This document shows, in pieces, positions 12,195 to 32,009 of a DNA stretch of 64,000 bases. The first letter of the stretch is position 1. Each line of letters starts with the position of its first letter. Under the pieces are notes generated by a model. It did not search any database. It had not been told where the DNA came from and was given only the letters and a program-made list of their open reading frames with translations. This stretch comes from Dialister sp. UBA734 (GTDB lineage Bacteria; Bacillota; Negativicutes; Veillonellales; Dialisteraceae), in the NCBI GenBank assembly GCA_002297935.1, contig DBLC01000097.1, forward strand, positions 13,156 to 77,155. Direction: 5' to 3'. The position numbers and the translations under genes are program-made.

Positions 12195-12229
12195 GAATGA
12201 ATTAGAACGCTTTCTTTTTGCGCTTATGT

Positions 12230-15409: not shown

Positions 15410-15429
15410 GTAGCATGCGCCCAGTGCCC

Positions 15430-15957: not shown

Positions 15958-15976
15958 AATATTCTCCTTTCTCTAT

Positions 15977-15995
15977 GCGCCCCATAAAGGGGCGC
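15977..15995 (-). promoter_or_regulatory. GC-rich hairpin downstream of VR (DGR target-recognition cruciform candidate)
   Basis: GCGCCCC-ataaa-GGGGCGC, 7-bp all-GC-rich stem, 26 nt beyond the VR 3' boundary and 8 nt after the target stop codon. Confidence 0.5.
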
Positions 15996-16003
15996 GGTCA
16001 GGG

Positions 16004-17268: not shown

Positions 17269-17296
17269 TTTTTATCACTCACTTTCTTAATACGCT

Positions 17297-18313
17297 TTAA
17301 GCGTCATAAGCTTTTGGCATCAAATCACCATTGCCGTCAATTTGCCAATTTCTCCCTCCAATTACTTCGACGGCTGGCATGAAATCTCCATTATCATCCA
17401 GGTCAAACAAATTAGAGGATAAGTCGACTGTAAGCTGCACCCATTTGCTAGACGATCCCGGTACTTCTCCTGCCTCTGTTGTATCTATGCAACGGTATGT
17501 GTGCCCATCTTTATAGGCTACTACATCCGGGTAATGATAAATTTTGCCTTCTTCCCATGAATCCGCTTTTGAAGCTAAGGCTGTAGCTGATGCTTCTTTA
17601 GCTTGATTTGCATATCCTTCCGTCTGGTCCATTAACTGGTGCGCAGTCTCTAAGTTGCCTTCTATTTTTTCATTGATTGTTTCTGCTAGATCTTTGATTT
17701 CTAAGGCCTCGTCTTTGATCCGACTTATTTCTGACAAATTCTCTCTTGAGGCATTTTCGGCATTCTTGGCCGCATCAGCATATTTTGCCGCCAAGTCAGA
17801 ATAATATTGTGGTTGTTTTACTGTTTCTAACGCTGTGCCATCAGCATTCCAGCCGAAGATTGTGTTTGGTACTGGAGCTGGTAAATTAAAAGAGATGTTA
17901 TCGCCGGCACTTTCAGGGAGCTTTAGTGTTCTTTTCCCAGTATTGAACAAATCTTGGCAAATCATTGTAAGTTTATCTAATGCTTTTTCGATAACTGCAA
18001 ATGGCCATTTCTCTCCTAATGACGATAGTTGATTGATTTCTATATCTCTATAAATAACCAACTTCTCACCGTTTGCCAAAATAGCTGGCCGTTCACTTTC
18101 TGCAGGTTCTTCTCCTATCGGATATCCAGGGTAGAAAACTACCATCTTGTCCAAATCAACAAAATAATCTTTCTCTAAAGTGCTTTCTGTCTGATCAGCG
18201 TTAACCTTGACTACTTTTACATCTTCTTTTTGCAAAGCGGGAAATGGTATAGCAAATTCTGTTGCAACTCCGTTTCCTTTATAAATCGTTCGATTTACTG
18301 ACGTGTTGATCAT
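17297..18313 (-). CDS. Tail fibre / tail spike-like protein
   Basis: 338 aa, SD ggaggaaa. N-terminus NRTIYKGNGVATEFAIPFP is common in phage fibre proteins. C-terminal YKDGHTYRC...SSKWVQL resembles a carbohydrate-binding motif. Confidence 0.6.
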   Translation of the reverse strand: MINTSVNRTIYKGNGVATEFAIPFPALQKEDVKVVKVNADQTESTLEKDYFVDLDKMVVFYPGYPIGEEPAESERPAILANGEKLVIYRDIEINQLSSLGEKWPFAVIEKALDKLTMICQDLFNTGKRTLKLPESAGDNISFNLPAPVPNTIFGWNADGTALETVKQPQYYSDLAAKYADAAKNAENASRENLSEISRIKDEALEIKDLAETINEKIEGNLETAHQLMDQTEGYANQAKEASATALASKADSWEEGKIYHYPDVVAYKDGHTYRCIDTTEAGEVPGSSSKWVQLTVDLSSNLFDLDDNGDFMPAVEVIGGRNWQIDGNGDLMPKAYDA

Positions 18314-18394: not shown

Positions 18395-21300
18395 TCATTT
18401 CTTATCCTCTTTCTTTTTAGACTTCTTGGGTTCGGCCTTGAGTGGTCTATCAAAGATAATGCTTCGAAGTAGATCAGCCAATGTGTATTGGTTCTCGGTG
18501 GTGCAGAATCTGACGGTACTCCAGAAGCCATCTGAGAGGGTATCGGAAAATCCCAGGTAGGATCGGTTGGAGACTTTGTTCACGTTCCGGGCTACTTCGA
18601 TGTAGTCACCCTTCTTAGTGGCGTCCATAATTCTTGGAATGTAGTTCAAAACATCCATAGCGCCAACATCTGGTGTAATTTCTCCCGTCTTTTTACCGGT
18701 CACGGCGTAATTTACCACCCATGGTAGACAATCTCGAATGACAGGGATCCCGCCAATCGGACCGCCGTTGAAAAAGGCATTGACGATTTTGTTTTTGTAT
18801 TTATCATCATCATCCTTATCGCCCCACGCGGCACGCATGCAGCCTTCAAAGACGGCGTTGAGAACCCAGCAGAACAGAATCGATTCTGCTAACGGTCGAA
18901 TGGAACCTGTATCTTTCCACTTATAGAAATCCCTCATAAACCAATTGGCTACCAGGTTGGTGTAGGAATAAAAGGCGGTGATCTGACCTAGCCAGTGCCC
19001 GTTTCTCATTATTTCTGGTCTATCTTTGATTTCCCCAGAGCCAAAGGTCTGTCGGACTGCTTTGTCTGCCAGTCTGACAGATTCCGCATCAATGTCTTCT
19101 ATCTTCATTTCCGGATGTTCCAGCTGCAGTTTTCTCTTGCTTCCTTCGTAAGTGGCAAGCCATTGCGGCATGGATAACATGTAGTCCGTTTTTGTAATCA
19201 ACCAAAAGCCATACCTGTTGATATTGGATGTTCCAAATTTTCCATTTTCCAAAGTAGAATGGAGCTTTGATTCTCCTTTTTCTACAGGAAGCCGCATACC
19301 CTGGGCCATGTCTCTGTCCATGTTACTCTCTCTGTCTCGCATGAAAGAGGACTTTTCTTTGATAAAGCGATATCTTTCGGCCACTCTTCTCGGTGCATAT
19401 GGAATATCTTTGTAAAAATGAGCTATGGCGTATAGTGCATTCATAGGCCCCATCTCATTCATCAGTGGGAAAATATTCAATGCATTCAGCAAGGCTGTAG
19501 ACGTTCTATACGCCATGGTCGCAAAATTAAACTTGCAACGCATACGGTTAAAAAAGCCTACCCAGTCATTGGCTTCAACGATTGGGCTATGCCAGTTATC
19601 TACTACCCATTGTTTTAGGAAATCATAACCGTCTTGTCCCATAACATTAACGATGCTTTCTTCGACGTCTTTTCTGCACAAGAGCTTGTATACGTCTACG
19701 GTAGCTTCTCGCATGGTGGTGTGCTGGATGGCTTCATCTACAAATTTAGGGTATAAATCCAAACTCAAGTTCAAGATTTGTCCGCCGGATCCGGTTCTTG
19801 TTTTGGTGCTTCCCATTCCGATGCCAAAGGTGGTAGCACCTTTCATGCCCTGCTTGGCCATATCGTTGACAGACTGTTCGGAAGTTCGCTGAGACAAGTC
19901 CTTGTCATAACGAATAGTGTAATACTGACCTCGAATTTTCCTGCCGCTTTTCAGTGTAAAGGTGATACCCGGTACCTTCCCCATGGGGACGCCGTATAAA
20001 TCGTTCTGTACTTTAGACCGGCCGGCGTAGTAGCTATTGAGATGGTTCCATACTTTTTCTACAAAGTCCCAGTCTTTATCTGTGAGATAGGTTTCTAGCT
20101 CTTCTTGTAAATCAATGGCCCAGTTCGATTTATTCAAATCGTAAGTTGGATTGACTTCTCTCACGATATCTTTGATTCGGTCTCTGTTGGATTCAGTTCC
20201 CCAGTTCAAAGCAATAACTAGGAGCTCTTCTTTTGCGAATAGTTCATCACTATCCAAAATTCTGTACTTCCTGTCATTTCTGATTTCCAGCCACTCTTTT
20301 CTGGAATAAGTATTGAATATCTTTTGGATATCCTTTTTTGCTTGTTCCTTCATTTCTCGCTGTCTTGCGGTAGCGATATCAATCGGCTTGTACAGGTAGT
20401 TGTAAGCCGCCGGTCCTAATCGTTCTATGTACATTTCAGGGAGTGCTAGCGAGCGGGCATATTTAGCTATGACGTGCAGTTTCTTTTGTTTGTCTGTAAA
20501 CAGATGCTTTCTCTGGAAGGGCGTAAAAAACTGCAAACCAGATACATTATGCAAACCATTTACAATCTCTTTGGCCGCATTATCAAAGGAAGTGCCCAGT
20601 GTGTTTCCTTCGTATTCTCGCCGACCAATGCGGTACACGGCTTTCATGCACTTTACAATGTCTCGGAAGTCGTTCATGGTGAGTTTATTGAAACTTCCTG
20701 GCTTCGAGTCAAAGTTGAAATAGGTGTCCAAGACCCATTCTGGAATAACGTCTGAACCATCGAATAAGAGAGACGCGCCGTCCAGCTGCTTCATATTCAT
20801 TGGATCTACCATGTCCAAAATAGCTTGCTTACTAAATGGCCTTGGATTCCCTGCGCTATCGATAGGCATTGGTGCATCGTTCTTTGTCATGCCGCACATA
20901 TAAGCCAGGTGCTGTATGAAATATCTGGCGTCGTCTTGGAGTAGTACAGGATTCTCTTTCCTTCCGATGCGATTGATCAGACCCAGGATGCCGTAGCGTT
21001 CCATGCCGTTATTATCCGTTTCTTTTGTAGTCAACTTTCCGCCGCCGTGCAATGCTTTTTTGATTTCATCCACATTCAGTTTGGCTTGCCGCGACATAAT
21101 GAGATTTTGGGCTTCTACTTTTTTATAGTAGGCTACGCCATCCCAGTCATTTTCAGCAGCACACTTCATGGCTTTGGCGTCTGCTTCTTTGGCTTTGTTC
21201 TGCCACCACTTCCAAGACGTGGCATGGGAGATGGTTTCCAGTGACATGGTATTGTAAGCGTCTTTTCTTAAAGTACCTTTGTCTACCCACATTCCTTTTC

Positions 21301-24300
21301 TAGATTCTCTCAGTCCATCCACCATGGTTTTGAGCTGTCCTTCCAGGTCGGCCACGGTGGCCTCGGTATCTTTTTGAGTAGCCTGCGTTTTCTCGTGGGC
21401 GGCCCGTTCTTTTTCCAGTTCCGCTTCGATGGCTCTGAGATTGTTTTCCAGAAGTTCGGCAGATTCTTTTCGAGATTTGTTTTCGCCCTTGGCGTCGGAA
21501 GCTTCTTTTCTAGCAGTCTCCAATTTTTCTTTCAAAGTCTTAACCTGCTTTTCCAGCTTGGAGATCTTTTCTTCCGAACGGGCGATGGTATCGGCTTGCT
21601 TGTCCAATTCACTAGTTTCCTTTTCGGAAACAAGTCCCAGTCGCTTTCGGATCTCTCTTGCCACCTTTTCTTTGTCCTTGGCCCGTTTGAGCTTCAACTG
21701 CATAGATGTTACAAGGTTGATGTACTGGGTGACTTTCTTTTCCAGCAGCATGGATTCGATACGGGATTTCTTCTGTAAGCCTTCCGGACTGTTCAGGATG
21801 TCTTCGGCCATTTGCTTGATGACTTCCGGAGTCAGGGCCTCATCTTTGTACTGCTGTACCATATCAGCGATATGCTTATGCCATTGTTCTTCTGAAGTTC
21901 CGCCGGATTCTTTGAGTCTCTGCTTGAATTCTTTTTCGGAGGCAAAGCCGCTTAATTTTAAGAAACCCTCTCTGTCTTTCTGTGTTGGATATGCGTCTGC
22001 ATTGTAGACTTGTTCGATGCTGTAGAGTTCATTCTCGTCGGCCAGGGATGTCATGAATTCGGCTTTTGCTTCTTCTGTGGAAATAGAGTCTTTGAATTGT
22101 TCAATGGCGTCTTCTTTTACCATAGACAAGTAGTAACTCATGGCTTTTTCCTGAGCTTTCTGTTTGACATTTTCGGCCCATTCCTTGAGATTGCCCAATT
22201 CAGACTTGTTCACGTCGATGGCTTTATCAATGGACTCCAGCTTTCTTTGGGCAGCCCAGGCGTTGATTTCGTCTTCGGTGGCTAGCATTTTATCAAAGAT
22301 GTCTTTGATCTCCGGTGTCAGTTTGACGTTGCCCAAATTCTTGGCTGTCTTATAGATATCGGTCAACCACTTTTTGAACCGCCGGAATACACCTTGCATT
22401 TCCTTTGTCGGGGCGCTTCCATCCATGAGGTATTTTTCAAAGCCTCTGGCAAAGCGTTCCTGGATCCAACGCTCTTCCGCCCCTTCTTTCCCGGCTGCGA
22501 TGTCTGCAGCATGCTGGGCAAATTCTTTCTCTAGGGCTGTACCTTTGTACTCTGCTAGGTGGTCTTCGCTATAAGCCGCCCAATTTCTAATGGTGGATAA
22601 ATCGTCCTGCATTCGCTTCATGGAAGCGGTGGCCGCTTTTTCGTCTCCATTGAAATACTGCAGCAGTGTCTGGGTATCGGTCTGACTCATATCTTCCAGC
22701 ATAGATAGGAACATGTGGGCCCCTTCGTGGATGACGGTAGACTGATTGGCTCCATCAAAGATATCAATGACATTTTGATTTCTGTCGTAGGAGCCTTGGA
22801 ACCTTGTTCCGTTCTGGAAATACTGCTTGGCTCTGTCCTGGGCACTGTTGGTTACACGTTCTCTATCTCCGTCGATTTTCGGATCGTAGAGGCGAATCAT
22901 AACGCCTTGGGCTCTCAAATAGTCTTTGATTTCTTTAGGTGCGTTTTTAGGCATAACGGCTGCCGCTACTTCATTGAAACGAACGGCCCTCTGTGGCTTG
23001 GCTTCAAAGTATTTAACAGGAAGCGCTTTGACTTCTTTCACGATTTCCTTGGCCTGCTTTTCGAGTTCAGCGGAGTAGTTGAAATCAAATTTCTTCGCGG
23101 ATACCTTGAATGATTTCCCCTGCATCATGGCCATAAGAACTCGCGCGGCATCGGAATAGGACTCCCACTTATTTTCCCATTTGTAGGCATCAGCCATTTT
23201 ATTTGTGAAATCCATAATCTTGTTTTTGACGGCAGTGTATTGTTCAGAATCGTCCAGTCCCGTTTCTGTGTTTGTTGAAGTGTCCATTTTCTTGTCGGCT
23301 ACTTCGTGAACTTCCTTCAAAGAGTTCATCTTCTTGGCGCTGCTGGCAATGACATTTCCTACACCATATCCGGCAAAACTGGTCTGGGCATTTTTGAGTT
23401 TCCCTAACATGGTATCTACAATGTTTTCCAAAGTGGCCGGCTTCCCATTATCCTGGATAACCGTTTCTCCCAGCATTTCATTGCGAAAGGATCTCTTCCA
23501 TGATTCATATGCTTTCTGATTCACCTCGACCTTTTTACTGACCTGTGTTTCAAAGGCCCGGCTGTCAAAAACCTTTTCGTCTCTTTTCAGGAAATCCCAT
23601 AGCAAAGAATGTAATTCCTCTCCATTAGCTATTCTTGCTTTTCTTCGTTCCCTCAATCTTTTACCCCATGCCGAAGTTCCTTCTGTCGACTCCTTTGTTG
23701 TCTCCTGTATCAATAAATCATTTACCTCTTTGATATCCGGACTTTCTTCTAGCATGGCATAAGGACCTTCATATAAAAGATCTTTTAATCCATCTTTCCC
23801 GTATTTCTTTTCTAGTTTCTGACATGCTTTCAATATTGTTGGATGCTCGGCAAATGTCCCACCTAGCTTCTTCTTTACCCACTTTGGCTTCGGTGCTTTG
23901 TTTATGGACTTGAGAAAATAATACTTAAACCCGATAGAATCTATAGAACTTTCTAGCATACGCTGTACGTCTCCGTTTTTATTCTTGACGTTAAAAAGCA
24001 TATTGCTATCATATAAATTCCCATAATCAGCATTCTCTCTTGGGAGCTCTCGCTGCAATGGCTCGATTACATTTTTCATGAAATCTTGCAACTTTTTTAG
24101 ATTTGCCACTCGAACTGTTTTTGGAAATACTCCTGTCCATGCATCTCTAGAGAATACCGGTGTCTGTGTTGGATCTACAGTGTCCTTGTTCATAATCAAG
24201 GTGACGTCACCAAAGCCTGTATAAGGAGTTTGTTTCTTGGTGATAGCGATAGAAGGGACAGGGAACCCGCCTAATTTGATTGCGGCCTCCAGGTTGCTTA

Positions 24301-27300
24301 GTCCTATGTTGTGCATGGCTACAAGATCTTTCTCTGGTGCTGCAGCCTGATAGTATTTATTGCTTTTGTCAAACTCATTGATTGCTTCCTGTAAAACCTC
24401 GCCATTTTCCCCGATTTTATCGGTGATTTCTTTGACATTTTCTAGCCATTCCTGTATACTATGAGTAAAGATAGGCTTGTCTAAGCTCTGCCCGGTTTTG
24501 GGAACCGGATACAGGTGTTTAGATGAGCCTTCTTTTATTTCTCTCATGCTTGTAATTTCGCCATCGTAAAAATATAAGTTCCCGTTTTTGTCTTTACGAA
24601 CTACAATTCTCGCTATACAGTCTTCATTGCCAATTGTCACTCTCTGCGCATAATAGCGATATGACAGCGTTGTCTGATTTAGCTTTTTAATTCTTCCTAC
24701 GTCCCGGGCTTCTTCGTAAAGGAAAGTTGCTTTTGAAACAACAGCATTCAAATGTGTAAGCATATATAGGTTTCGAAGATCTGCTGAATGGCGTCTAATT
24801 TCTTTTGCCGCAGTTATTGGCATTACTATATTTTCACCATATTTATTAACTACTTTCCCTGGATTTTTGTATCCGTTCGCCATAACCGTAGGTGAGAATA
24901 ATGCGTGAAAAATAGTTTTGATATTTTTTCGTACTGATTCTGTAGTTGGCTGAATTTCTGACTTAGCGCTGCCGTTAACCCAATTTATGACGCTATGAAA
25001 ACTTTCTTGAGTTATACTTTCGGGTTTAGTATTAAACAAGTCGTTGTATCTCTTTACTGTATCCCAGCCTCTAAACCACCTTTTGAAAGAATCGCTATGA
25101 GAAATTAACCACTGACGTTCAGTTAGTTTAGTATGGCTTCCATCAGGTGCCTTCATCCATCGGTCTGTATTTTGAAGTTTTTCTTTAATTTTGGATAATT
25201 CATCTTCAATGTTCTGCTGTGAAAAAGGCAATTCGGCTCTGCCCAAATTAACAACCGCCGGTCCAAATTCGGAGAAATAGTAATCTGGCATGCTCCATTT
25301 TCCAGTAACATATGGATTTTTACCATCAGCGTTTGCTTTGATATCCTGCCAATCCTGATACAACGTTTTGGCTTCATCTGACATTTTATCCAGTTCGTTT
25401 CTCCTATAGGCCATTTTGTCTAATGGATGACGGCTCAAGTAAGTATCAAAAGTATTTTTAGCTTTGATACTTCTATTCATCTGCTGGATAAATTCCTTTT
25501 TGGCTTTGGTATATTCCTCAGCCCGGCCTTCAATCATAAAAGCTTCTGTTTCACCGCCTAACATTCTATAGGCGGTATAGTCGTTTACACTGGACGCCCG
25601 CTTTAATAATTTGATTTCCGCTAAATACCCTTTGATAGCTCTGACTTTTTCAAAGGGTATTTTCTTTTCCATTGCACTAAGCTCTGCATTAATCTTAAAA
25701 AACTTTTCAAAATCACGACAGTTCTCGGCTTCATGGTATTTGTCTAAAAACTCCTGTGCTTCTTTGGTGTCAATTTCCGATTTAAGGGCGAGCTCTAATG
25801 TATGCAGTGTACTTTCCATATCAGCCTTGGCCGTTTCCGGGCTGCCGCCTTTGGAAAAGCCTTGCTCGAATTTATTTTGGATTACATGCTGCAATTCGTG
25901 GATAATGGTTTTCTTCGCTTCTTCCGGATCGGATTTTACGTAGTCCTTGTCTAGGATGATGTGGTCTCCCTGGGTGGCTCCATTGGCCCCTGCGAGTTCT
26001 CCATCTTCATAGGTCAGGAAATCGGCTATGCGAATTTTGGTATCTCTTAGGTCGGGATATGCTTCATAGAGGTCTTCATTGGTATAGATTTCATCGATGT
26101 AACGTTCTTCTTCAGACAGTCTATCCAGGTGAATGCCTTCTAAATCGTCAGGGATTTCAAAGCGCCAAATACCTTCCGGTCCCCTAAGCCATCCCGTCTT
26201 ATTCCATATTTCTTCCGGTACGGCTCCATCCTGTTCCATTTGTTCTGCTTCGCGCAATTTTTCTAACGGCGCCGTTCTGGCATTCTCACCCGCCATCTGC
26301 CCCAGTGCTTCCGGTGCAAGGCCGGTGATTTCTCCGGCTTTGATGGTTGCCAGTTTCAACGGCACGCCGTAGTTCTTATGGAAATTCTCTGCCAGCTTTG
26401 CCAGAATCAAAGCGGAGTCTCTAGCAGCCTGTGTAACTTCTTTGTTTCCTGCTTTGGTGATTTGTTCCAATAGCGGCTTGTATGCCTGTTCGTAGGTATC
26501 AGGATCGAGTAAGGTCTGAGCAACAAGATCTTTCTTATCCAGTGTCTTGATGACTTCTCCGACACGTTCCAAAGATTCGACTTTTGCCTTGGCGGCTTCC
26601 AGTTCCTGGGTTCCCATGTGAGAGTCTTCGCTATTATCATGAAAAACTTCTTTGATGATTTTCTGATGCGCTACATCATACAGTTCTCGCTGGGTAGGTG
26701 CTCTGTCATGGTCACTGTAGAAGTCCTGATACCAGTCCGGATTCTTCGATTCTCGGATATGTACACGGTCGGCACCTTCACCCACGTCGATAAAATCTAC
26801 GCCCTTTTCGCCAGATGTATTGGCGTCCTGTGTCTTTCTTCGTTCCATGTAGTCCTGGAGTTCTTTTACACCGGAAAGATCGCCCCAGGCTTTTTTTGCT
26901 TCTTCTAGCAGACTTTTGTAGTTTTCCTGTAAATGGTCCAATCCGCCGGAAAGGAGTTCTTGGGCTGTGGCCCGGTCTTCTCTCCCTTTTTCAGTGTCTT
27001 CGGAAAAATGATCGTTCAGAATTTTTTCGCTGGCGGCCGCTTCTCTCTTCTCTTTGGTAGAAGTGACAATATCAATCATGTCCTTATAGCGCTGGCGTTC
27101 TTCTTTGATAGCGTGTAGAGTACGTTCTCCCTTGTCCATGGTGGAATAATCAGACAAAACTTCTGGCGTTTCTTCTGAAGCGAGCTGCATATATTTCCCG
27201 GATTCTACGGCCAGTGGCTTGCCTGTTTTAATGGATTCGTCGAGTTCTTTAGCGGAAACAATTCCCTTTTCCACCATTTCGTTCAGTGCTTCATGAGTGG

Positions 27301-29062
27301 ATTCGTTTTCGGCTGCAGCTTGTGCATCGATGTAAACCGTCCCCATATCAGCCTGATCCATCTGTCTTTGAATGGTTTTTCTATAGGTTTCTGGTGCTTT
27401 ATGGTAAAGAGAAGAGTCTTCACGAAGTTCCATAACTTTCTGCAACATGGCATTTTCATTTTGCCTTTTAAATTCTGTGACGGTCTCTTTCATTTCAGAT
27501 AGTCCGGATATTTTCTTCATTGCCTTATAAGCACCAATGCCGCCTAAAGCGGAACCGCCAATAGACATACCAATGACGGACGGTACAGCTTCAACCATGG
27601 CGTCCAGGGCATTGTTGAACATTTCTTTTGCAGAAATTCCGCCTTCGCCATAGATGTTGGTATCTAAATCTGACGTCATAGATTGCAAACCTTCTTCTAC
27701 GGTTTCCGGAATAGCTACTTTGGCAAACTGCTTGCCACCATGAATCAAAGCTTGTTTTCTGATAGCTCCTCTTCCTGCGCCAATCAATTTTTTCATGGCA
27801 TCGGTGTCTTTGATAACAGCAGAAGCAGCTTCACTTCCCCATACTTTGGCAATGCCTTTGAATGCCAGTTCCCAGGCACCCGTTTCAATAGCAGCATTCA
27901 TCATACCTACTCTCTTAGCGTGTCCAATAGCCTGCTCGCGAGTATAGACATGATTTCCGTTTTTACCTTTCTTGGTTCTCCATTCCCAGTAAGCCTGACC
28001 TGCTTCTGCTCTGTACGTGCCTACAAAAACAGAGGCAGTGCCTAACGTGAGTAAGCCGGCAATAGCAGCACCACTGGCAACAGTAGCAGCGGCTGCGGTT
28101 CCTGTCAGTCCTAATGCGCTTGCAGTTGCAGTGCTTCCTAATGTGGCAATTTGTGGGATGTTAGTTTTTGTGGCCTGGAGTGCGGGCTGTGCTAACGGGG
28201 CGATAGGAGCCAAAATTTTTTCTGCCCCTCTCATCATCATGTTTTTCTGCATGGACAACTGAGAAATGGCTTCTCCTACGATCCTAGCCACGTAGGTGTC
28301 TCCCATTTCAGACTTAAATTCTTTCTGCATAGTCATAAGTCCAGGAAGTGCCTTCTCTACATCTTCATCGGAAATTTCGCCGATAGAGGCTTTGTACATG
28401 AGCTCGCTCTGTGCATCCATAGCCTGTCCAGCGTTATAAGCTTTAGTGACAAGGTCAGAGATTTTCCCAAAGATATAACCAGGAAGGCTGTTTATATCTT
28501 TCATAGTAGATTTATAGGTACCCCAAAGAGAAGGGTCGGCATCCATAGTATAAGCAGCCGTTCCTTCCGAAATGGCTCTGCGTGTTTTCAGGATGTTGTT
28601 ATAGTCTCTTAATGCCATAGTAGTGGCTACGGTATCTTCGGTATCTAATTCTGGATACATCTGTGCCACTGTTTGTGGTGTGAATGGCTTCCCCTGCAGA
28701 AAGGCATTGTTTTGCTGCTGTTCATAGGTTAATAAGGCATTCTTGTATAGATCGTCGTTTTCCGCCAATGTCTGCGGGACTAGTCCTAAAGCATTGCCTA
28801 CCTTTTCTGCACTAGCTAGTCTTTCATCTGGGGTCTGTGTATTGGTCTGCACTCGCCAGAACTTTTTCAGCTTATCTATTGTCCCCATAGATTCATCGTC
28901 TAGGAATGTCCAGTCAATCCCGCTTTGAGCGGCTTGCTGTTTTCTCTGACGTTCTTCGTATGGTTCATCCGTCCCCATGGTAGGGATTACTGGGTATTGC
29001 TGCTTAGAGACTTTGGCTTGTCCGGTAAAGACGGCCATGAAGTCGTCATCGTTCATTGGCAT
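18395..29062 (-). CDS. Giant virion-module protein (about 3,555 aa), putative ejected polyvalent protein
   Basis: ORF open to 29146. Best start is ATG 29062 (GGAGGAG 7 nt upstream; TAATG overlap with the upstream stop). Gly/Ala-rich hydrophobic N-terminal region. HELQH at 25886-25900 and HEGAH at 22715-22729. Long K/E coiled coil. Hydrophobic C-terminal third. Confidence 0.85.
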   Translation of the reverse strand: MPMNDDDFMAVFTGQAKVSKQQYPVIPTMGTDEPYEERQRKQQAAQSGIDWTFLDDESMGTIDKLKKFWRVQTNTQTPDERLASAEKVGNALGLVPQTLAENDDLYKNALLTYEQQQNNAFLQGKPFTPQTVAQMYPELDTEDTVATTMALRDYNNILKTRRAISEGTAAYTMDADPSLWGTYKSTMKDINSLPGYIFGKISDLVTKAYNAGQAMDAQSELMYKASIGEISDEDVEKALPGLMTMQKEFKSEMGDTYVARIVGEAISQLSMQKNMMMRGAEKILAPIAPLAQPALQATKTNIPQIATLGSTATASALGLTGTAAAATVASGAAIAGLLTLGTASVFVGTYRAEAGQAYWEWRTKKGKNGNHVYTREQAIGHAKRVGMMNAAIETGAWELAFKGIAKVWGSEAASAVIKDTDAMKKLIGAGRGAIRKQALIHGGKQFAKVAIPETVEEGLQSMTSDLDTNIYGEGGISAKEMFNNALDAMVEAVPSVIGMSIGGSALGGIGAYKAMKKISGLSEMKETVTEFKRQNENAMLQKVMELREDSSLYHKAPETYRKTIQRQMDQADMGTVYIDAQAAAENESTHEALNEMVEKGIVSAKELDESIKTGKPLAVESGKYMQLASEETPEVLSDYSTMDKGERTLHAIKEERQRYKDMIDIVTSTKEKREAAASEKILNDHFSEDTEKGREDRATAQELLSGGLDHLQENYKSLLEEAKKAWGDLSGVKELQDYMERRKTQDANTSGEKGVDFIDVGEGADRVHIRESKNPDWYQDFYSDHDRAPTQRELYDVAHQKIIKEVFHDNSEDSHMGTQELEAAKAKVESLERVGEVIKTLDKKDLVAQTLLDPDTYEQAYKPLLEQITKAGNKEVTQAARDSALILAKLAENFHKNYGVPLKLATIKAGEITGLAPEALGQMAGENARTAPLEKLREAEQMEQDGAVPEEIWNKTGWLRGPEGIWRFEIPDDLEGIHLDRLSEEERYIDEIYTNEDLYEAYPDLRDTKIRIADFLTYEDGELAGANGATQGDHIILDKDYVKSDPEEAKKTIIHELQHVIQNKFEQGFSKGGSPETAKADMESTLHTLELALKSEIDTKEAQEFLDKYHEAENCRDFEKFFKINAELSAMEKKIPFEKVRAIKGYLAEIKLLKRASSVNDYTAYRMLGGETEAFMIEGRAEEYTKAKKEFIQQMNRSIKAKNTFDTYLSRHPLDKMAYRRNELDKMSDEAKTLYQDWQDIKANADGKNPYVTGKWSMPDYYFSEFGPAVVNLGRAELPFSQQNIEDELSKIKEKLQNTDRWMKAPDGSHTKLTERQWLISHSDSFKRWFRGWDTVKRYNDLFNTKPESITQESFHSVINWVNGSAKSEIQPTTESVRKNIKTIFHALFSPTVMANGYKNPGKVVNKYGENIVMPITAAKEIRRHSADLRNLYMLTHLNAVVSKATFLYEEARDVGRIKKLNQTTLSYRYYAQRVTIGNEDCIARIVVRKDKNGNLYFYDGEITSMREIKEGSSKHLYPVPKTGQSLDKPIFTHSIQEWLENVKEITDKIGENGEVLQEAINEFDKSNKYYQAAAPEKDLVAMHNIGLSNLEAAIKLGGFPVPSIAITKKQTPYTGFGDVTLIMNKDTVDPTQTPVFSRDAWTGVFPKTVRVANLKKLQDFMKNVIEPLQRELPRENADYGNLYDSNMLFNVKNKNGDVQRMLESSIDSIGFKYYFLKSINKAPKPKWVKKKLGGTFAEHPTILKACQKLEKKYGKDGLKDLLYEGPYAMLEESPDIKEVNDLLIQETTKESTEGTSAWGKRLRERRKARIANGEELHSLLWDFLKRDEKVFDSRAFETQVSKKVEVNQKAYESWKRSFRNEMLGETVIQDNGKPATLENIVDTMLGKLKNAQTSFAGYGVGNVIASSAKKMNSLKEVHEVADKKMDTSTNTETGLDDSEQYTAVKNKIMDFTNKMADAYKWENKWESYSDAARVLMAMMQGKSFKVSAKKFDFNYSAELEKQAKEIVKEVKALPVKYFEAKPQRAVRFNEVAAAVMPKNAPKEIKDYLRAQGVMIRLYDPKIDGDRERVTNSAQDRAKQYFQNGTRFQGSYDRNQNVIDIFDGANQSTVIHEGAHMFLSMLEDMSQTDTQTLLQYFNGDEKAATASMKRMQDDLSTIRNWAAYSEDHLAEYKGTALEKEFAQHAADIAAGKEGAEERWIQERFARGFEKYLMDGSAPTKEMQGVFRRFKKWLTDIYKTAKNLGNVKLTPEIKDIFDKMLATEDEINAWAAQRKLESIDKAIDVNKSELGNLKEWAENVKQKAQEKAMSYYLSMVKEDAIEQFKDSISTEEAKAEFMTSLADENELYSIEQVYNADAYPTQKDREGFLKLSGFASEKEFKQRLKESGGTSEEQWHKHIADMVQQYKDEALTPEVIKQMAEDILNSPEGLQKKSRIESMLLEKKVTQYINLVTSMQLKLKRAKDKEKVAREIRKRLGLVSEKETSELDKQADTIARSEEKISKLEKQVKTLKEKLETARKEASDAKGENKSRKESAELLENNLRAIEAELEKERAAHEKTQATQKDTEATVADLEGQLKTMVDGLRESRKGMWVDKGTLRKDAYNTMSLETISHATSWKWWQNKAKEADAKAMKCAAENDWDGVAYYKKVEAQNLIMSRQAKLNVDEIKKALHGGGKLTTKETDNNGMERYGILGLINRIGRKENPVLLQDDARYFIQHLAYMCGMTKNDAPMPIDSAGNPRPFSKQAILDMVDPMNMKQLDGASLLFDGSDVIPEWVLDTYFNFDSKPGSFNKLTMNDFRDIVKCMKAVYRIGRREYEGNTLGTSFDNAAKEIVNGLHNVSGLQFFTPFQRKHLFTDKQKKLHVIAKYARSLALPEMYIERLGPAAYNYLYKPIDIATARQREMKEQAKKDIQKIFNTYSRKEWLEIRNDRKYRILDSDELFAKEELLVIALNWGTESNRDRIKDIVREVNPTYDLNKSNWAIDLQEELETYLTDKDWDFVEKVWNHLNSYYAGRSKVQNDLYGVPMGKVPGITFTLKSGRKIRGQYYTIRYDKDLSQRTSEQSVNDMAKQGMKGATTFGIGMGSTKTRTGSGGQILNLSLDLYPKFVDEAIQHTTMREATVDVYKLLCRKDVEESIVNVMGQDGYDFLKQWVVDNWHSPIVEANDWVGFFNRMRCKFNFATMAYRTSTALLNALNIFPLMNEMGPMNALYAIAHFYKDIPYAPRRVAERYRFIKEKSSFMRDRESNMDRDMAQGMRLPVEKGESKLHSTLENGKFGTSNINRYGFWLITKTDYMLSMPQWLATYEGSKRKLQLEHPEMKIEDIDAESVRLADKAVRQTFGSGEIKDRPEIMRNGHWLGQITAFYSYTNLVANWFMRDFYKWKDTGSIRPLAESILFCWVLNAVFEGCMRAAWGDKDDDDKYKNKIVNAFFNGGPIGGIPVIRDCLPWVVNYAVTGKKTGEITPDVGAMDVLNYIPRIMDATKKGDYIEVARNVNKVSNRSYLGFSDTLSDGFWSTVRFCTTENQYTLADLLRSIIFDRPLKAEPKKSKKKEDKK

Positions 29063-31293
29063 TATTCTTCTCCTCCGTTTTCTTCCATGACGTCCATCAT
29101 GGTTTTGGTCCCATCGTTCATATCCTGCAGCTGGGCGGCGCTGCAATAGAAAGATTCGCCATTTCTACCGATTACCTGGAACATTCCATTTCCGTAAGGT
29201 TCATAATCTACAATGCCTGCTCTTGCCAACCCGGCCATAGAAACGTTATAGTCTTCATCGGCACTGAGCCAATGATCTTCGTGGTAAATATTTTTTGTTT
29301 GTACCACTTCCTGCGCGATGCGCTTGATAACATCTTGGCTTGCTGGATAGCCGTTGGGATTAGGAATCATTTCGTATTGGTTATTGCTATACTGATAGAT
29401 CCTCTGTCTTATCAGTCCCATTGTACTGGCGTCGAATTGAGAACTATCTACTCCGGTATAGTCAGCCAGCTCTTTGGCGGATGGTAATTCTACGGAAAAT
29501 TCTTTATCCCCATGTTCATAGCGATTCCACGCCGATTCAACTGAATCTTTCTGCGCATCTGTCAATGCGTACCCGTTATTGGCTGCCAATTCCAGCTTAT
29601 TATCCAAGTCTTCTCTACTGACTATTCCTGTACCTATGAGGCTAATCAGGTTATTTACCATCTTATTGGTCGAATATCCTGTCCCACCTTTCCCAGCAAT
29701 GCTTCTAGCCGATTCTGCTTTTTCTTGTGCTTTGGCATTAGCCATTAGAGACTTGTACTGAGAGGAATCGGCGAAAAGAGGATTACTAGCTGCAATTCGA
29801 TCAATATAAGATTCCTTCTCTTGTGGAGTCATGGTAGACATCGGAATTTTCATATCATCCAATGTTCTTGCAAGAGATTCCTGTTGTTCCTGCTTTCGTT
29901 TCATCCATTCGGATTTGGCCGCTTTTTCTCTATTGACTTCCAGTTGTTCTTTTTCTTCATCAGACATGGACGCCTGCCCTGCATAGTTCTTGGCTCTGGC
30001 TTCCAATCCGGCTGCATAGGTATCTTCGTTGTCTGTGTAATAACCATGTTTTTTCATAAGTCTAGCAACGTCAGAAGGGGAATGAACTGACTTGATTTCT
30101 TCTTCACTGCAGTTATTCTTGATCCAATTCACATAAGACATGGCTGCATCTTCTGGGGTGTTGTAAACCTTGAACTTTGCTTTGGTATAATATTCGTTCC
30201 CGTTTTCATCCAGTTCCCTAGTATTGAGTTCCTGATAGTCACCTTCGCCATCCCATTTGATACCAAAATAATTATTTCCCGGTGCTGCTTCACCGCCGGC
30301 AGATTCAAAGTCGGCTACGGCATAGCCCCATGATGGGTCCCACCCCAATTCTTTTCCGATTTTGTCACCAACGCGTCCTAGGTCAGTTGTACTATGGGTA
30401 ACTTCTAATGGATGGGAGGCACTCCATTTTGCGTAGTAATCTTCAAAAGAACCGGTAAGGCAATTTACATTGTCTTCTGTCATTGCCCCTGTAAAATCTT
30501 TTTTCGTTGTAGATTCTGTTTTGGTAGCAGTAAACAGCGCTTCAAACTTTTTCATGGTAGCTTCGTCGGCCCCCAACGTTCTAAAGTAACCAACCGTATC
30601 CAGGCCCGCTGTATAATCATTTGTCGTTGCCATGGAGTTAAGTGCCTTCTCCGCAATGGAGTTAATCGCCTGCTTTGTCTTCAGGTTCACTGTTGATTCA
30701 TCCCATCCTCTGCCGGCCATATTTGCTCGTAAAAGCGGCATAAAGGTATTCATACTATTTCTCATGTTTTCTGGGCTCCGTATAATCGAATCAACGGTAT
30801 TGTCCAAAAGCGTTTGTGCCTGATTGGTTGCATAAAGATCCAGCTGCTGTTTCTGATACTTGTCGATAGTATCTAACGCTCCGGTTTGCATGGATTCACG
30901 TTTCTGTTTAAAAGCAGCAATGGCATAGTTAGAAGAAATTCCGTGATCTTTCATGATCTGGTTGTATATTTCTTCTTCTCCTTTTTGGTAATCCTCTTGT
31001 AAGGACTCAGCATTTTTCCCTTGATGGGTAACGTAAAGGCCTTTGTTTTCATCATCCATCATAGAATTAACTCTTTGCATATAATCGTTTGTAGCATCTA
31101 TGATTCGATCATTCTGGTCCTTGGTCCACTGTTTCTGCACCATGTCCATGGCGGCCCCTAGCGAGGCATTCAGTGCTCCTGCGCCAGTTTGGTTAGATCC
31201 ATAAGCCGCCGGAGAATCGACAGCCTGGACTTTGCCATTGATGATGTTTTTATTCACATTCGGTGTGAATTGTGTGAGTTTCATCAGTTCCAC
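29062..31293 (-). CDS. Internal virion protein with GH73-like glucosaminidase domain
   Basis: 743 aa. The block DFESAGGEAAPGNNYFGIKW...YTKAKFKVYNTPEDAAMSYVNWI resembles FlgJ / mannosyl-glycoprotein endo-beta-N-acetylglucosaminidase. Positioned among ejection proteins. Confidence 0.65.
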   Translation of the reverse strand: MELMKLTQFTPNVNKNIINGKVQAVDSPAAYGSNQTGAGALNASLGAAMDMVQKQWTKDQNDRIIDATNDYMQRVNSMMDDENKGLYVTHQGKNAESLQEDYQKGEEEIYNQIMKDHGISSNYAIAAFKQKRESMQTGALDTIDKYQKQQLDLYATNQAQTLLDNTVDSIIRSPENMRNSMNTFMPLLRANMAGRGWDESTVNLKTKQAINSIAEKALNSMATTNDYTAGLDTVGYFRTLGADEATMKKFEALFTATKTESTTKKDFTGAMTEDNVNCLTGSFEDYYAKWSASHPLEVTHSTTDLGRVGDKIGKELGWDPSWGYAVADFESAGGEAAPGNNYFGIKWDGEGDYQELNTRELDENGNEYYTKAKFKVYNTPEDAAMSYVNWIKNNCSEEEIKSVHSPSDVARLMKKHGYYTDNEDTYAAGLEARAKNYAGQASMSDEEKEQLEVNREKAAKSEWMKRKQEQQESLARTLDDMKIPMSTMTPQEKESYIDRIAASNPLFADSSQYKSLMANAKAQEKAESARSIAGKGGTGYSTNKMVNNLISLIGTGIVSREDLDNKLELAANNGYALTDAQKDSVESAWNRYEHGDKEFSVELPSAKELADYTGVDSSQFDASTMGLIRQRIYQYSNNQYEMIPNPNGYPASQDVIKRIAQEVVQTKNIYHEDHWLSADEDYNVSMAGLARAGIVDYEPYGNGMFQVIGRNGESFYCSAAQLQDMNDGTKTMMDVMEENGGEE

Positions 31294-32009
31294 CCATTAA
31301 ACCCTTTCCACTTCTTCGGTGCCATGAATGTGTTGAATGTCGGTTTGGAAGAGGTAATGATTCCAGTGTTTAGCTTCGGTAGATTCATACCTGCAGATTG
31401 ATACATGGATGTTGGTGTGGTGTATGTCAGGTTCCCGCTAGCAAGGTCCCCATTAAAACCGCTTCTAGCTTGCATAGTTTGGCCGCTCGCCTTACTGGAT
31501 GCGCCGCCAAAAGTCTTATAAGCACCGTACATGCTGAGAGCGGTATTGAGCAAAGAGGAAATTCTAGCAGACTTCGCCTGGCTTCGTGTATTAGCAGCGG
31601 CGGCCTGGGCCTGGTTGGCCTGGTTCAAATAGTTTACCTGGTTGATATAGGCACTCTTGGTATCGTTCCGCTGGTTCCCTAACAGGTTCATGGAGTCAGT
31701 TCTCCACTGATCAACAGCGGCCGCATTGGCATCCAATACACTTCCGCCGGTCAAGCCGGAAGCACCGGCTGCAGCATTCTGCTGGCCAATGATGAGTTTT
31801 CTCTTGGCGTCCAGCTGTTGCTGTTTCTGTGCATACTGGTCTGCGATCTGGGATCGCTGCTGGTCTGCGATTCTAGCATTCTGCCTTGCGGCGTCGGCCT
31901 GTGCATCATAGGCGGCCGCTTGGGCTTTATATTGGGCATTCTGGGATCGGTAGGAGCTATACCCCTGCATGGCCGCTAGTCCCATCATGGCTGCGGTTAC
32001 ACTACACAT
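31284..32009 (-). CDS. Internal virion protein (Q/A/N-rich)
   Basis: 241 aa, low-complexity AQ-rich (AAYDAQADAARQNARIADQQRSQIADQ). Position matches a podovirus core protein. Confidence 0.5.
   Translation of the reverse strand: MCSVTAAMMGLAAMQGYSSYRSQNAQYKAQAAAYDAQADAARQNARIADQQRSQIADQYAQKQQQLDAKRKLIIGQQNAAAGASGLTGGSVLDANAAAVDQWRTDSMNLLGNQRNDTKSAYINQVNYLNQANQAQAAAANTRSQAKSARISSLLNTALSMYGAYKTFGGASSKASGQTMQARSGFNGDLASGNLTYTTPTSMYQSAGMNLPKLNTGIITSSKPTFNTFMAPKKWKGFNGWN

What the first reader, a model, noticed from the sequence alone, without database searches (positions are those of the whole stretch)
18395..29062. 10.7-kb gene for a roughly 3,555-aa protein in the ejection-protein slot
A single ORF takes about 26% of the prophage (10,668 of 41,077 nt). 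It follows two internal-virion-type proteins (an AQ-rich 241-aa protein and a 743-aa protein with a glucosaminidase-like block) and precedes the tail fibres. This is where podoviruses encode their largest ejected core protein.

Seen directly in the translation:
- Gly/Ala-rich hydrophobic segments near the N-terminus.
- Two separate HExxH motifs: TIIHELQHVIQ at nt 25886-25900 and TVIHEGAHMF at 22715-22729.
- A long K/E coiled coil.
- Several hydrophobic helices in the last approximately 800 aa.

Stretches such as GWLRGPEGIWRFEIPDD, SFKRWFRGW, AMHNIGLSNLEAAIKLGGFPVPSIAI and ERFARGFEKYLMDG remind me of modules strung together in phage and conjugative-element polyvalent proteins (zincin-like peptidase, barnase/EndoU-like nuclease, ADP-ribosyltransferase).

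The hypothesis is a T7-gp16-like ejection scaffold fused to a battery of injected anti-host or anti-defence effectors.
Basis: partly seen in the sequence, partly recalled or inferred. Interest (0 to 1): 0.75.

Follow-up and report, generated by a model that had tools for sequence, protein, structure and literature searches.

The report
Giant polyvalent ejection protein of prophage
A 3,555-residue gene in a Dialister prophage is a real but ordinary member of a large known class: giant phage proteins that probably travel inside the virus head and are shot into the bacterium carrying several enzyme modules.

Summary
The ORF is real. It runs 18395..29062 on the minus strand and encodes 3,555 aa, 26.0% of a 41,077-nt prophage bounded by a 21-bp direct repeat. 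The same intact ORF (3,511-3,555 aa) recurs in at least six independent public assemblies, so it is not an artefact.

It sits in the T7 gp16 slot of a BPP-1-like temperate podovirus integrated in Dialister sp. Upstream are gp11-, gp12-, gp13- and gp14-like genes and a 743-aa glucosaminidase protein. Downstream are the tail fibre and a diversity-generating retroelement.

Pfam places LPD23, a DUF4157/eCIS-type HExxH zincin, LPD3 (borderline) and a PBECR5 nuclease in a variable middle region (aa ~900-2080). No ADP-ribosyltransferase was found.

The flanks form a conserved chassis. It consists of an N-terminal anchor (aa ~70-900), a second HExxH...E domain (aa 2080-2266, uncurated, >10,000 clusters), a coiled coil and an all-alpha C module. 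The chassis is shared with 2,480-3,380-aa orthologues in Veillonellaceae prophages and with BPP-1 Bbp10.

Direct sequence, profile and fold tests against T7 gp16 were negative, so the gp16 likeness rests on position and on published work.

Verdict: a new member of a known kind (phage-type polyvalent internal virion protein). Injection is inferred, not shown.

The parts
18395..29062 (-). Giant gene, 3,555 aa (~400 kDa). ATG at 29062, stop at 18395-18397.
   Evidence: The exact product is in public collections and five near-identical full-length variants exist.
26363..28855 (-). Conserved N-terminal anchor, aa ~70-900.
   Evidence: It is 24-64% identical to the N-termini of Veillonellaceae giants and 64-74% identical to 13 database proteins that carry different downstream modules. 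hhalign against the Bbp10 N part gives probability 76%, E 2.4e-5. No Pfam family matches.
28025..28165 (-). Gly/Ala-rich hydrophobic segment, aa ~300-346, a candidate membrane-inserting element.
   Evidence: Kyte-Doolittle 19-mer mean up to 1.68. G321 is invariant in alignment A5. Membrane insertion is an inference.
26144..26299 (-). LPD23 domain, aa 922-973, containing GWLRGPEGIWRFEIPDD.
   Evidence: Pfam PF18838, E 3.8e-20, 71.9 bits against a cutoff of 27.
25871..25993 (-). Zincin-like metallopeptidase motif 1, aa 1024-1064, with HELQH at aa 1055.
   Evidence: Pfam eCIS_core (PF13699/DUF4157), E 1e-5, 26.1 bits against a cutoff of 22. The same block in relative L007 hits the DUF6782 metallopeptidase family.
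24572..24859 (-). LPD3-like domain, aa 1402-1497. It lies inside the block aa 1280-1570 shared with L014, L017 and L011a, which begins with SFKRWFRGW.
   Evidence: Pfam PF18798, E 9.3e-6, 26.3 bits, just under the cutoff of 27. Block sharing is, the motif.
23789..24337 (-). PBECR5 domain, a predicted barnase/EndoU/colicin-E5/RelE-like RNase, aa 1576-1758.
   Evidence: Pfam PF18814, E 1.4e-37, 130 bits. Its N-terminal core motif HN...GG.P.PS.A.ITK...FG..TLI...DP...VFS.DA is shared with relatives.
22832..23788 (-). Unassigned segment, aa 1759-2077, at the end of the variable middle region.
   Evidence: Covered only by phrog_22978 (unknown function, E 1.3e-29). No Pfam or PDB match.
22265..22825 (-). 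Conserved HExxH...E domain, aa 2080-2266 (HEGAH at 2112, ERFARGFEKYLMDG at 2202). This is the first part of the conserved C block.
   Evidence: Present in all relatives, including BPP-1, Carin1 and MZH0603. Invariant residues are S..HExxH, E143, E150 and G.AP. The profile finds 10,819 50%-cluster representatives. No Pfam, PDB-sequence or PDB-fold match.
21143..22195 (-). K/E-rich helical/coiled-coil linker, aa ~2290-2640, strongest heptad signal at aa 2472-2582.
   Evidence: This is also the zone where relatives carry deletions or are split into two genes.
18413..21115 (-). Conserved all-alpha C-terminal module, aa ~2650-3550.
   Evidence: - phrog_9880, E 5e-108.
- 33-87% identical homologues in the protein collection.
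- 20-26% identity to Bbp10 and other podophage giants by tblastn.
- AF2 model pLDDT 70.
- The fold matches C-terminal chunks of 64 BFVD viral giants at E <= 1e-3.
- dN/dS 0.07.
29062..31293 (-). Upstream 743-aa protein with a glucosaminidase domain (gp15 slot, muralytic internal virion protein).
   Evidence: Pfam Glucosaminidase, E 1.7e-10. PHROG endolysin. Its TAA overlaps the giant gene's ATG.
31284..32009 (-). 241-aa T7 gp14-family internal virion protein.
   Evidence: Pfam PF24072 T7_gp14, E 6.7e-13. phrog_418 and phrog_805, internal virion protein.
32002..32481 (-). 159-aa internal virion protein (gp13 slot).
   Evidence: phrog_308, E 7.6e-18.
17297..18313 (-). 338-aa tail fibre with a T7-gp17-type N-terminal adaptor, immediately downstream.
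   Evidence: Thirteen PHROG tail-fibre families match its N-terminal ~130 aa.

Best explanation
The gene encodes a phage-type polyvalent internal virion (ejection) protein. It is an expanded orthologue of Bordetella phage BPP-1 Bbp10, in a BPP-1-like temperate podovirus of Dialister.

Shown:
- It is one intact, selected ORF in the late structural operon, in the slot that T7 gp16 occupies.
- It is built as a conserved chassis around a variable cassette.
- The chassis is an N anchor (aa ~70-900) plus a C block (aa ~2080-3550). The C block consists of an HExxH...E domain, a coiled coil and an all-alpha C module.
- The cassette (aa ~900-2080) holds LPD23, a DUF4157-type zincin, an LPD3-like domain and a PBECR5 RNase-fold domain.
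- The cassette differs between otherwise orthologous proteins.

Inferred:
- A few copies are packaged in the capsid core with the gp14-like and muralytic gp15-slot proteins.
- On adsorption to the diderm Dialister envelope they are ejected ahead of the DNA.
- The hydrophobic N segment and the helical C block help build the trans-envelope conduit.
- The cassette domains reach the cytoplasm, where the PBECR5 nuclease and partner domains act on host or rival-element RNA or proteins in the first moments of infection.
- One or both zincin-like domains cut the polyprotein into working pieces.
For: Slot and synteny:
- Upstream genes are gp11-, gp12-, gp13- and gp14-like plus a muralytic protein. Downstream is a T7-type fibre.
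- The gene order is the same in BPP-1, which has bbp13, bbp12, bbp11 (SLT), bbp10, bbp9, mtd, avd, TR and brt.
- TAATG coupling links the gene to the upstream gene.

Polyvalent modules:
- Domains above Pfam thresholds in this protein.
- Bbp10 carries LPD22 + PBECR1 and Carin1 gp32 carries LPD22 + PBECR5.

Chassis and cassette:
- blastp mosaic against 11 single-ORF giants of 2,483-3,376 aa from Dialister, Megasphaera and Veillonella genomes.
- Relatives carry MuF_C, LPD3, DUF6782, or LPD23 + PBECR5 in place of the window's set.
- The C block exists as a stand-alone protein of 1,351-1,458 aa, close to T7 gp16's 1,318 aa.
- The C-module fold recurs at the C-terminus of BFVD viral giants annotated LPD, MuF_C, nuclease, ART-PolyVal, N-acetyltransferase or 'structural protein'.

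Selection:
- Intact copies occur in independent assemblies, indels are in frame, and dN/dS is 0.05-0.07.

Literature:
- Iyer et al. 2017 (PMC5512222) define polyvalent proteins, predict their packaging and injection, and propose an autoprocessing role for the metallopeptidase.
- Hardies et al. 2016 (PMC4819975) list Bbp10 as an IVP-D (gp16) homologue. They note that internal virion proteins host domains destined for the cytoplasm (N4 gp50, H66 gp60).
- The PhiXacm4-11 preprint (10.64898/2026.02.16.706137) treats a 2,300-aa protein in the same slot as a core-protein candidate.
Against: - No virion proteomics or ejection data exist for this phage or for any close relative that I could find.
- Direct tests for homology to T7 gp16 or epsilon15 gp17 were negative: PDB sequence searches, hhalign probability 0.5%, phmmer/blastp E > 0.01, and Foldseek with the T7 core chain 9jyy_I at E 1.8 and TM 0.08.
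- No match was found to the solved cyanophage A4 pre-ejectosome either.
- Protease activity of either HExxH domain is inferred from motifs only. The AF2 model of the second domain found no zincin fold in the PDB.
- LPD23 and LPD3 have no known activity.
- Some relatives carry the coding capacity as two or three genes, so fusion is not essential to function.
Confidence: 0.75

Rival explanations
1. It is a purely structural ejection or channel protein. The Pfam-matching domains would be degenerate relics or structural spacers with no enzymatic role after entry.
For: - The chassis (N anchor plus C block) is the conserved part. Cassette content is dispensable across relatives.
- LPD domains have no demonstrated activity (PMC5512222).
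- LPD3 is sub-threshold.
Against: - PBECR5 scores 130 bits, with a conserved polar core motif shared with relatives down to 30% identity.
- Cassettes are exchanged for other enzyme-type modules rather than lost.
- No frameshift or stop accumulates across ~1,180 codons of cassette in six independent copies.
Confidence: 0.12
2. It is not packaged at all. It would be a cytoplasmic, late-expressed toxin or superinfection-exclusion polyprotein that happens to be encoded in the structural operon.
For: - BECR-fold nucleases and zincins are common toxin modules.
- A close relative of this prophage carries separate defence-type cargo, SLATT and ThsB_TIR.
Against: - The position between internal virion proteins and the fibre is conserved in temperate and lytic relatives.
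- The gene is translationally coupled to the upstream internal virion protein.
- A C module of ~900 aa is shared with phage giants, some annotated as structural proteins.
- No immunity-like small gene lies next to it.
Confidence: 0.06
3. It is a fusion artefact or a decaying pseudogene, with two or three real genes joined by misassembly or mutation.
For: - Several metagenomic relatives show the slot as two or three ORFs: 1,626+1,029; 1,609+1,879; 1,165+2,155; 168+1,119+1,351.
- L005 shows a split caused by a 526-nt deletion.
Against: - The identical 3,555-aa ORF occurs on four or more contigs.
- Five variants of 3,511-3,555 aa come from independent assemblies.
- Eleven genome-derived orthologues are single ORFs of 2,483-3,376 aa.
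- Purifying selection acts on the gene.
- BPP-1, Carin1 and MZH0603 isolates also have single ORFs.
Confidence: 0.02
4. It is an N4-like virion-packaged RNA polymerase or another nucleic-acid enzyme hidden in the unassigned segments (aa 1065-1400 and aa 1759-2077).
For: - The size is similar to N4 gp50.
- N4 gp50 carries an IVP-D-like C-terminus (PMC4819975).
- About 650 aa of the cassette are unassigned.
Against: - No RNAP, polymerase, helicase or methylase family appears at E <= 1 in Pfam, nor in NCBIfam or PDB sequence searches.
- The unassigned stretches are too short for an N4-type RNAP (~1,100 aa).
Confidence: 0.03

Closest known systems
Bordetella phage BPP-1 Bbp10 (NP_958679, 2,052 aa)
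   Same: - Same slot and same flanking gene order, including the DGR downstream.
- Homologous in three blocks: N anchor (hhalign E 2.4e-5), HExxH...E domain (33% identity, E 5e-26) and C module (25% identity, E 6e-26).
- Also carries polyvalent modules, LPD22 and PBECR1.
   Different: - The window protein is 1,500 aa longer.
- It lacks LPD22 and PBECR1 and instead has LPD23, a DUF4157-type zincin, LPD3-like and PBECR5 domains plus a long coiled coil.
- The host is a diderm Firmicute (Dialister), not a proteobacterium.
Phage-type polyvalent proteins (Iyer, Burroughs, Anand, de Souza, Aravind 2017, PMC5512222)
   Same: - Several unrelated domains in one polypeptide, drawn from that paper's domain set (LPD23, LPD3, PBECR5, zincin peptidase).
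- Encoded among virion genes.
- Architecture varies between orthologues.
   Different: Nothing categorical. The conserved HExxH...E domain and the C module found here are not represented by a Pfam family.
T7 gp16 / internal virion protein D
   Same: - Gene position after gp14- and gp15-type proteins and before the fibre.
- Largely alpha-helical.
- The stand-alone C block in relatives is 1,351-1,458 aa, against 1,318 aa for gp16.
- Bbp10 is listed as an IVP-D homologue by Hardies et al. 2016 (PMC4819975).
   Different: - No detectable sequence, profile or fold similarity in my tests.
- The muralytic domain is on the preceding protein, not at the N-terminus of this one.
N4 gp50 virion RNA polymerase and Pseudomonas phage H66 gp60
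   Same: Giant podovirus internal proteins that combine an IVP-D-like part with domains that must act in the cytoplasm (PMC4819975). N4 gp50 has a similar size, ~3,500 aa.
   Different: The cargo here is a nuclease, peptidase and LPD modules, not an RNA polymerase or methylase.
Xanthomonas phage PhiXacm4-11 gp35 (2,300 aa) and cyanophage A4 gp27
   Same: - Very large protein in the core/ejection slot of podoviruses studied by cryo-EM.
- PhiXacm4-11 gp35 likewise gave no PDB similarity (10.64898/2026.02.16.706137).
- Xanthomonas phages are among the tblastn hits of the C module.
   Different: - I did not align PhiXacm4-11 gp35 itself.
- No A4 pre-ejectosome chain (PDB 9K2V, per PMC12002296) appeared in my PDB sequence searches or among the top 50 listed fold matches.

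Membership tests
Phage-type polyvalent protein (Iyer et al. 2017) | Two or more domains of disparate biochemistry from the polyvalent domain set in one polypeptide. | tested here: met
   LPD23 at 71.9 bits, PBECR5 at 130.3 bits and eCIS_core zincin at 26.1 bits are all above Pfam cutoffs. LPD3 at 26.3 bits is just below its cutoff of 27.
Phage-type polyvalent protein (Iyer et al. 2017) | Encoded among virion structural or late genes. | tested here: met
   Flanked by tail tubular, gp13-like, gp14-like, muralytic and fibre genes.
Phage-type polyvalent protein (Iyer et al. 2017) | Domain architecture varies among orthologues (mosaicism). | tested here: met
   Conserved ends with a swapped middle. 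Relatives carry MuF_C, LPD3, DUF6782, LPD22, PBECR1 and a weak ART-PolyVal hit.
Phage-type polyvalent protein (Iyer et al. 2017) | Packaged in the virion and injected with the DNA. | not testable with these tools
   Needs virion mass spectrometry and infection assays. The family's authors also only predict this for most members.
T7 gp16 / IVP-D family | Gene position: after gp14- and gp15-type internal virion proteins, before the tail fibre. | tested here: met
T7 gp16 / IVP-D family | Sequence or profile similarity to T7 gp16 or epsilon15 gp17. | tested here: not met
   - PDB profile and phmmer searches gave no gp16 hit.
- hhalign of A1 against T7 gp16 and epsilon15 gp17 gave probability 0.5%.
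- phmmer/blastp gave nothing significant.
- My profiles were shallow. Hardies et al. needed stepwise joined HMMs to reach Bbp10 (PMC4819975).
T7 gp16 / IVP-D family | Fold similarity to solved gp16. | tested here: inconclusive
   The AF2 model of the C module has pLDDT 70. Foldseek against the PDB gave no hit at E <= 1e-3, with T7 core chain 9jyy_I at E 1.8 and TM 0.08. gp16 changes conformation and the model is of medium quality.
T7 gp16 / IVP-D family | N-terminal lytic transglycosylase domain. | tested here: not met
   No muralytic domain in the giant. The Glucosaminidase domain is on the preceding 743-aa protein.
BPP-1 Bbp10-like giant internal proteins | Homology to Bbp10 across the N anchor, the HExxH...E domain and the C module, in the same slot. 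| tested here: met
PBECR5 (PF18814) | Match above the Pfam gathering score. | tested here: met
   E 1.4e-37, 130.3 bits against a cutoff of 25, aa 1576-1758, profile positions 12-188 of 239. RNase activity is not testable here.
ART-PolyVal ADP-ribosyltransferase (PF18760) | Match to the family model. | tested here: not met
   No hit at E <= 1 in the window protein. Relative L005 has only a 24.3-bit hit against a cutoff of 31.2.
Zincin metallopeptidase (for the second HExxH domain, aa 2080-2266) | HExxH plus a third ligand on a zincin fold. | tested here: inconclusive
   - HExxH and two downstream Glu residues are invariant in 12 diverse members.
- Only scattered weak Peptidase_M1/M3/M32 hits appeared (E >= 0.017, one member each).
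- The AF2 core is confident and helical, but no PDB fold match was found.
N4-type virion RNA polymerase | Single-subunit RNAP domain. | tested here: not met
   No polymerase family in Pfam, NCBIfam or PDB sequence searches.

The most novel reading that the evidence does not exclude
The family is a modular delivery chassis. A conserved N anchor and a conserved C block flank a defined swap-in site for effector cassettes.

The abundant but uncurated HExxH...E domain sits at the start of the C block, with >10,000 50%-identity clusters. Under this reading it is the family-wide autoprotease that releases whatever cassette lies upstream after ejection.

If so, the cassette content of each prophage would be a readable record of which host or rival defences it has to beat. 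The chassis could also be used to deliver chosen proteins into diderm Firmicutes such as Dialister and Veillonella.
Probability: 0.3. Interest if true: 0.55.

Novelty: new member of a known kind. Interest (0 to 1): 0.3.

Why it matters
Polyvalent internal virion proteins are predicted to be the first phage proteins to meet the host cytoplasm, yet very few have been tested.

What this case offers:
- A clean, intact and naturally variable example in a human-associated genus (Dialister; most related assemblies look like gut or oral metagenomes).
- Clear boundaries between conserved chassis and exchangeable cassette.
- A set of close relatives with alternative cassettes, which suits comparative or swap experiments.

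It also points to two very common phage domains that have no curated family: the HExxH...E domain and the ~900-aa C module.

It does not change what is known about the class.

Tried and rejected
- A full-length query to the search for homologous proteins timed out. Pieces were used instead.
- megablast of the gene against phage genomes found nothing. tblastn of aa 1-900 against phages also found nothing.
- Direct homology to T7 gp16, T7 gp15, epsilon15 gp16 and epsilon15 gp17 was not detected by phmmer, blastp or hhalign. The only recurring weak alignment was of the Gly/Ala-rich hydrophobic segment with epsilon15 gp16 aa ~120-165. I treat that as low-complexity similarity.
- Foldseek against the PDB was uninformative for both AF2 models.
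- NCBIfam has no model for the protein.
- No tandem repeats lie inside the gene, so its length does not come from repeat expansion.
- The artefact or pseudogene reading was rejected on independent assemblies and dN/dS.
- The split in the closest metagenomic relative, L005, comes from a 526-nt deletion that shifts the frame. It is not a natural gene boundary.
- An internal start for a separate C-terminal product was looked for. Only Met2580 has an SD-like sequence upstream, and this was not pursued.
- A literature search for virion proteomics of close homologues (Pseudomonas phage AF, Cobetia phage Carin1) gave nothing usable.
Full report
**1.

On the minus strand an ORF runs from 29146 (TTG) to the stop at 18395. 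The likely start is the ATG at 29062. It overlaps the stop codon of the upstream 743-aa gene (TAATG) and is preceded by GGAGGAG. This gives 10,668 nt and 3,555 aa.

A Gly/Ala-rich hydrophobic stretch lies at aa 316-346. A K/E-rich zone peaks at 30% K+E, and my crude heptad scan is strongest at aa 2472-2582.

Only one strongly hydrophobic 19-mer lies in the last 800 aa (aa 3391-3409), so that detail is weaker than stated.

A 21-bp direct repeat at 11934-11954 and 52990-53010 bounds a 41,077-nt prophage with an integrase at 51763-52872. The gene is therefore 26.0% of the prophage.

**2. It is not an artefact**

The exact 3,555-aa sequence is in the public protein collection, on at least four contigs. 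Its 90% cluster holds five more full-length members (3,511-3,555 aa) from separate ENA and Logan assemblies.

- They differ from the window by in-frame indels (aa 738-781, 755-771, 3417) and by a patch of substitutions at aa ~2300-3100.
- In that patch dN/dS against locus L035 is 0.05-0.07.
- Eleven orthologues recovered from genome assemblies are also single ORFs, of 2,483-3,376 aa.

**3. Context**

Gene order on the minus strand is as follows:

- terminase, portal, protease/scaffold-like, major capsid;
- gp11-like (35173-35766) and gp12-like (32474-35170);
- a gp13-slot internal virion protein (32002-32481);
- a T7_gp14-family protein (31284-32009);
- a 743-aa glucosaminidase protein (29062-31293);
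- the giant gene;
- a fibre with a T7-type N-terminal adaptor (17297-18313);
- a DGR target gene, an Avd-like gene and a reverse transcriptase;
- holin and endolysin.

This is the order found in Bordetella phage BPP-1 (bbp13, bbp12, bbp11, bbp10, bbp9, mtd, avd, TR, brt).

The host is Dialister. Flanking host proteins are identical or at least 90% identical to NCBI entries named Dialister sp.. Related prophages sit in Dialister, Megasphaera and Veillonella genomes. These are diderm Firmicutes, so an envelope-spanning ejection apparatus is plausible. That last point rests on general knowledge, not on a test here.

**4. Anatomy**

Pfam places four domains in the protein:

| Domain | Residues | E-value |
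|---|---|---|
| LPD23 | 922-973 | 3.8e-20 |
| eCIS_core/DUF4157 zincin (over the first HExxH) | 1024-1064 | 1e-5 |
| LPD3 (0.7 bit under the cutoff) | 1402-1497 | 9.3e-6 |
| PBECR5 | 1576-1758 | 1.4e-37 |

No ART, RNAP, helicase or methylase was found. PHROGs adds phrog_9880 over aa 2785-3428 (5e-108) and phrog_22978 over aa 1578-2077, both of unknown function.

Comparison with orthologues divides the protein into three parts:

- a conserved N anchor, aa ~70-900, 24-64% identical;
- a variable middle, aa ~900-2080;
- a conserved C block, aa ~2064/2080-3550, 28-57% identical.

The N anchor occurs at 64-74% identity in 13 database proteins. Where Pfam domains are on record for those, they are LPD3, MuF_C, or LPD23 + PBECR5 + MuF_C.

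The closest relative outside the 90% cluster, L005, shares the ends. In the middle it has MuF_C, a partial PBECR5 and a sub-threshold ART-PolyVal.

BPP-1 Bbp10 (2,052 aa) carries LPD22 + PBECR1. Cobetia phage Carin1 gp32 (2,854 aa) carries LPD22 + PBECR5. Vibrio phage MZH0603 (1,902 aa) carries LPD22.

**5. The second HExxH is part of the chassis**

The stretch aa 2080-2266 is conserved in every relative. This includes Bbp10 (aa 765-926), Carin1 and MZH0603. Twelve diverse members share invariant S..HExxH, two Glu residues in E..FA.GFE.Y, and G.AP.

- It has no Pfam family and no PDB relative by sequence or by fold.
- A profile of it nevertheless finds 10,819 representatives of 50%-identity clusters, 9,148 of them at E <= 1e-10.
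- Among the best 150 listed, most hits lie inside proteins of 2,000-4,800 aa.

The motif pattern suggests a gluzincin-type peptidase. That is an inference from motifs only.

**6. The C module**

The ~900-aa C-terminal module is all-alpha in an AF2 model (pLDDT 70). It has no match in the PDB. It does match the C-terminal chunks of 64 BFVD viral proteins at E <= 1e-3. Their UniProt names include LPD-containing protein, MuF C-terminal domain protein, nuclease, ART-PolyVal, N-acetyltransferase and structural protein. It is therefore a common C-terminal module of phage polyvalent giants.

In some metagenomic relatives the coding capacity is divided into two or three genes:

- 1,626 + 1,029 aa (L004);
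- 168 + 1,119 + 1,351 aa (L009);
- at least 1,336 + 904 aa (L007);
- 1,609 + 1,879 aa (L010);
- 1,165 + 2,155 aa (L011).

The stand-alone C-terminal proteins begin either at the start of the C block (giant aa ~2050-2117) or within the coiled-coil zone (aa ~2260-2650). In L010 the break falls in the PBECR5 region, about 80 aa in. One split, L005, is simply a 526-nt frameshifting deletion. The stand-alone C block of 1,351-1,458 aa is close in size to T7 gp16 (1,318 aa).

**7. Relation to T7 gp16**

Position and the neighbouring T7_gp14-family protein argue for the same role. Direct tests failed, however:

- PDB sequence searches;
- hhalign against T7 gp16 and epsilon15 gp17, probability 0.5%;
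- phmmer and blastp;
- Foldseek, with the T7 core chain 9jyy_I at E 1.8.

The lytic domain is also on the preceding protein rather than on this one.

Hardies et al. 2016 (PMC4819975, Table 2) list Bbp10 as an IVP-D homologue in the epsilon15 subgroup, after stepwise HMM joining. [quoted passage not shown]

I therefore file the protein as a Bbp10-like polyvalent internal virion protein that works like gp16. I do not file it as a demonstrated gp16 family member.

**8. Mechanism**

Shown:
- the late-operon position;
- the chassis-and-cassette architecture;
- the domain identities;
- purifying selection.

Inferred from Iyer et al. 2017 (PMC5512222) and from T7, N4 and A4 biology (PMC12002296):
- packaging in the capsid core;
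- ejection ahead of the DNA;
- contribution of the hydrophobic N segment and the helical C block to the trans-envelope conduit;
- delivery of PBECR5 and its partner domains to the cytoplasm;
- processing by one or both zincin-like domains.

Confidence that it is a virion-packaged, ejected polyvalent protein is about 0.75. Confidence in each individual step is lower.

**9. Novelty and score**

The class is described (PMC5512222, PMC4819975), the prototype phage BPP-1 has an orthologue, and thousands of similar giants exist. Some of those are larger, up to 4,793 aa.

What is particular to this case:
- its share of the genome (26%, against 14.5% for Bbp10 and 21% for Carin1 gp32);
- the Dialister host;
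- the clear chassis and cassette boundaries.

It is a new member of a known kind. Interest is 0.3.

Noticed in passing
window 14023-17278 (TR 15324-15409, VR 16022-16107): A complete diversity-generating retroelement lies downstream of the tail fibre. It has a reverse transcriptase (14023-15189), an Avd-like gene (15430-15957) and a 424-aa target gene (16004-17278). The target gene's 3' end carries an 86-nt variable repeat 85% identical to the template repeat. All 13 mismatches fall at T of the template on the + strand, that is A on the coding strand, the hallmark of DGR mutagenesis. The layout matches BPP-1 mtd-avd-TR-brt.
   Followed up: partly
window 11934-11954 and 52990-53010: A 21-bp direct repeat, CATTAAATTATCGGAACTTAT, bounds the prophage at 41,077 nt. 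The integrase is at 51763-52872. No tRNA gene is in the window, so the attachment site is not a tRNA.
   Followed up: partly
window 1-11900 and 53011-64000: Host flanks are Dialister sp. Several flanking proteins are identical or at least 90% identical to NCBI entries HBK27805.1, HBK27807.1 (MtnA) and HBK27510.1 (LytR family). A related prophage, L004, sits beside similar methionine-salvage-type genes (AdoHcyase, IF-2B/MtnA family, PNP_UDP_1), which hints at a shared integration neighbourhood.
   Followed up: partly
giant aa 2080-2266 = window 22265-22825: This conserved HExxH...E domain has no Pfam, NCBIfam or PDB counterpart, yet it is found in 10,819 50%-identity clusters, among the best 150 listed mostly inside 2,000-4,800-aa proteins. 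It is a very common phage domain that still lacks a curated family.
   Followed up: yes
L035 24424-27515 (ENA NODE_235_length_42958, 98% identical giant): A near-identical phage carries SLATT_1/DUF4231 and ThsB_TIR genes with HTH regulators next to its integrase. This is defence-type accessory cargo that I did not look for in the corresponding part of the window (about 9757-12700).
   Followed up: no
giant aa 738-781 = window 26720-26851: This is a hotspot for in-frame deletions in otherwise identical copies: 44 aa deleted in P0043 and P0046, 17 aa in P0044. It lies near the end of the N anchor. No tandem repeat was detected there.
   Followed up: partly
L007 3990-4012 and L008 2861-2883: In two independent assemblies the upstream polyvalent ORF and the 904-aa C-module ORF overlap by 23 nt in different frames. 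I did not test whether this is an ordinary overlap or a frameshift site that could yield a fused product.
   Followed up: no
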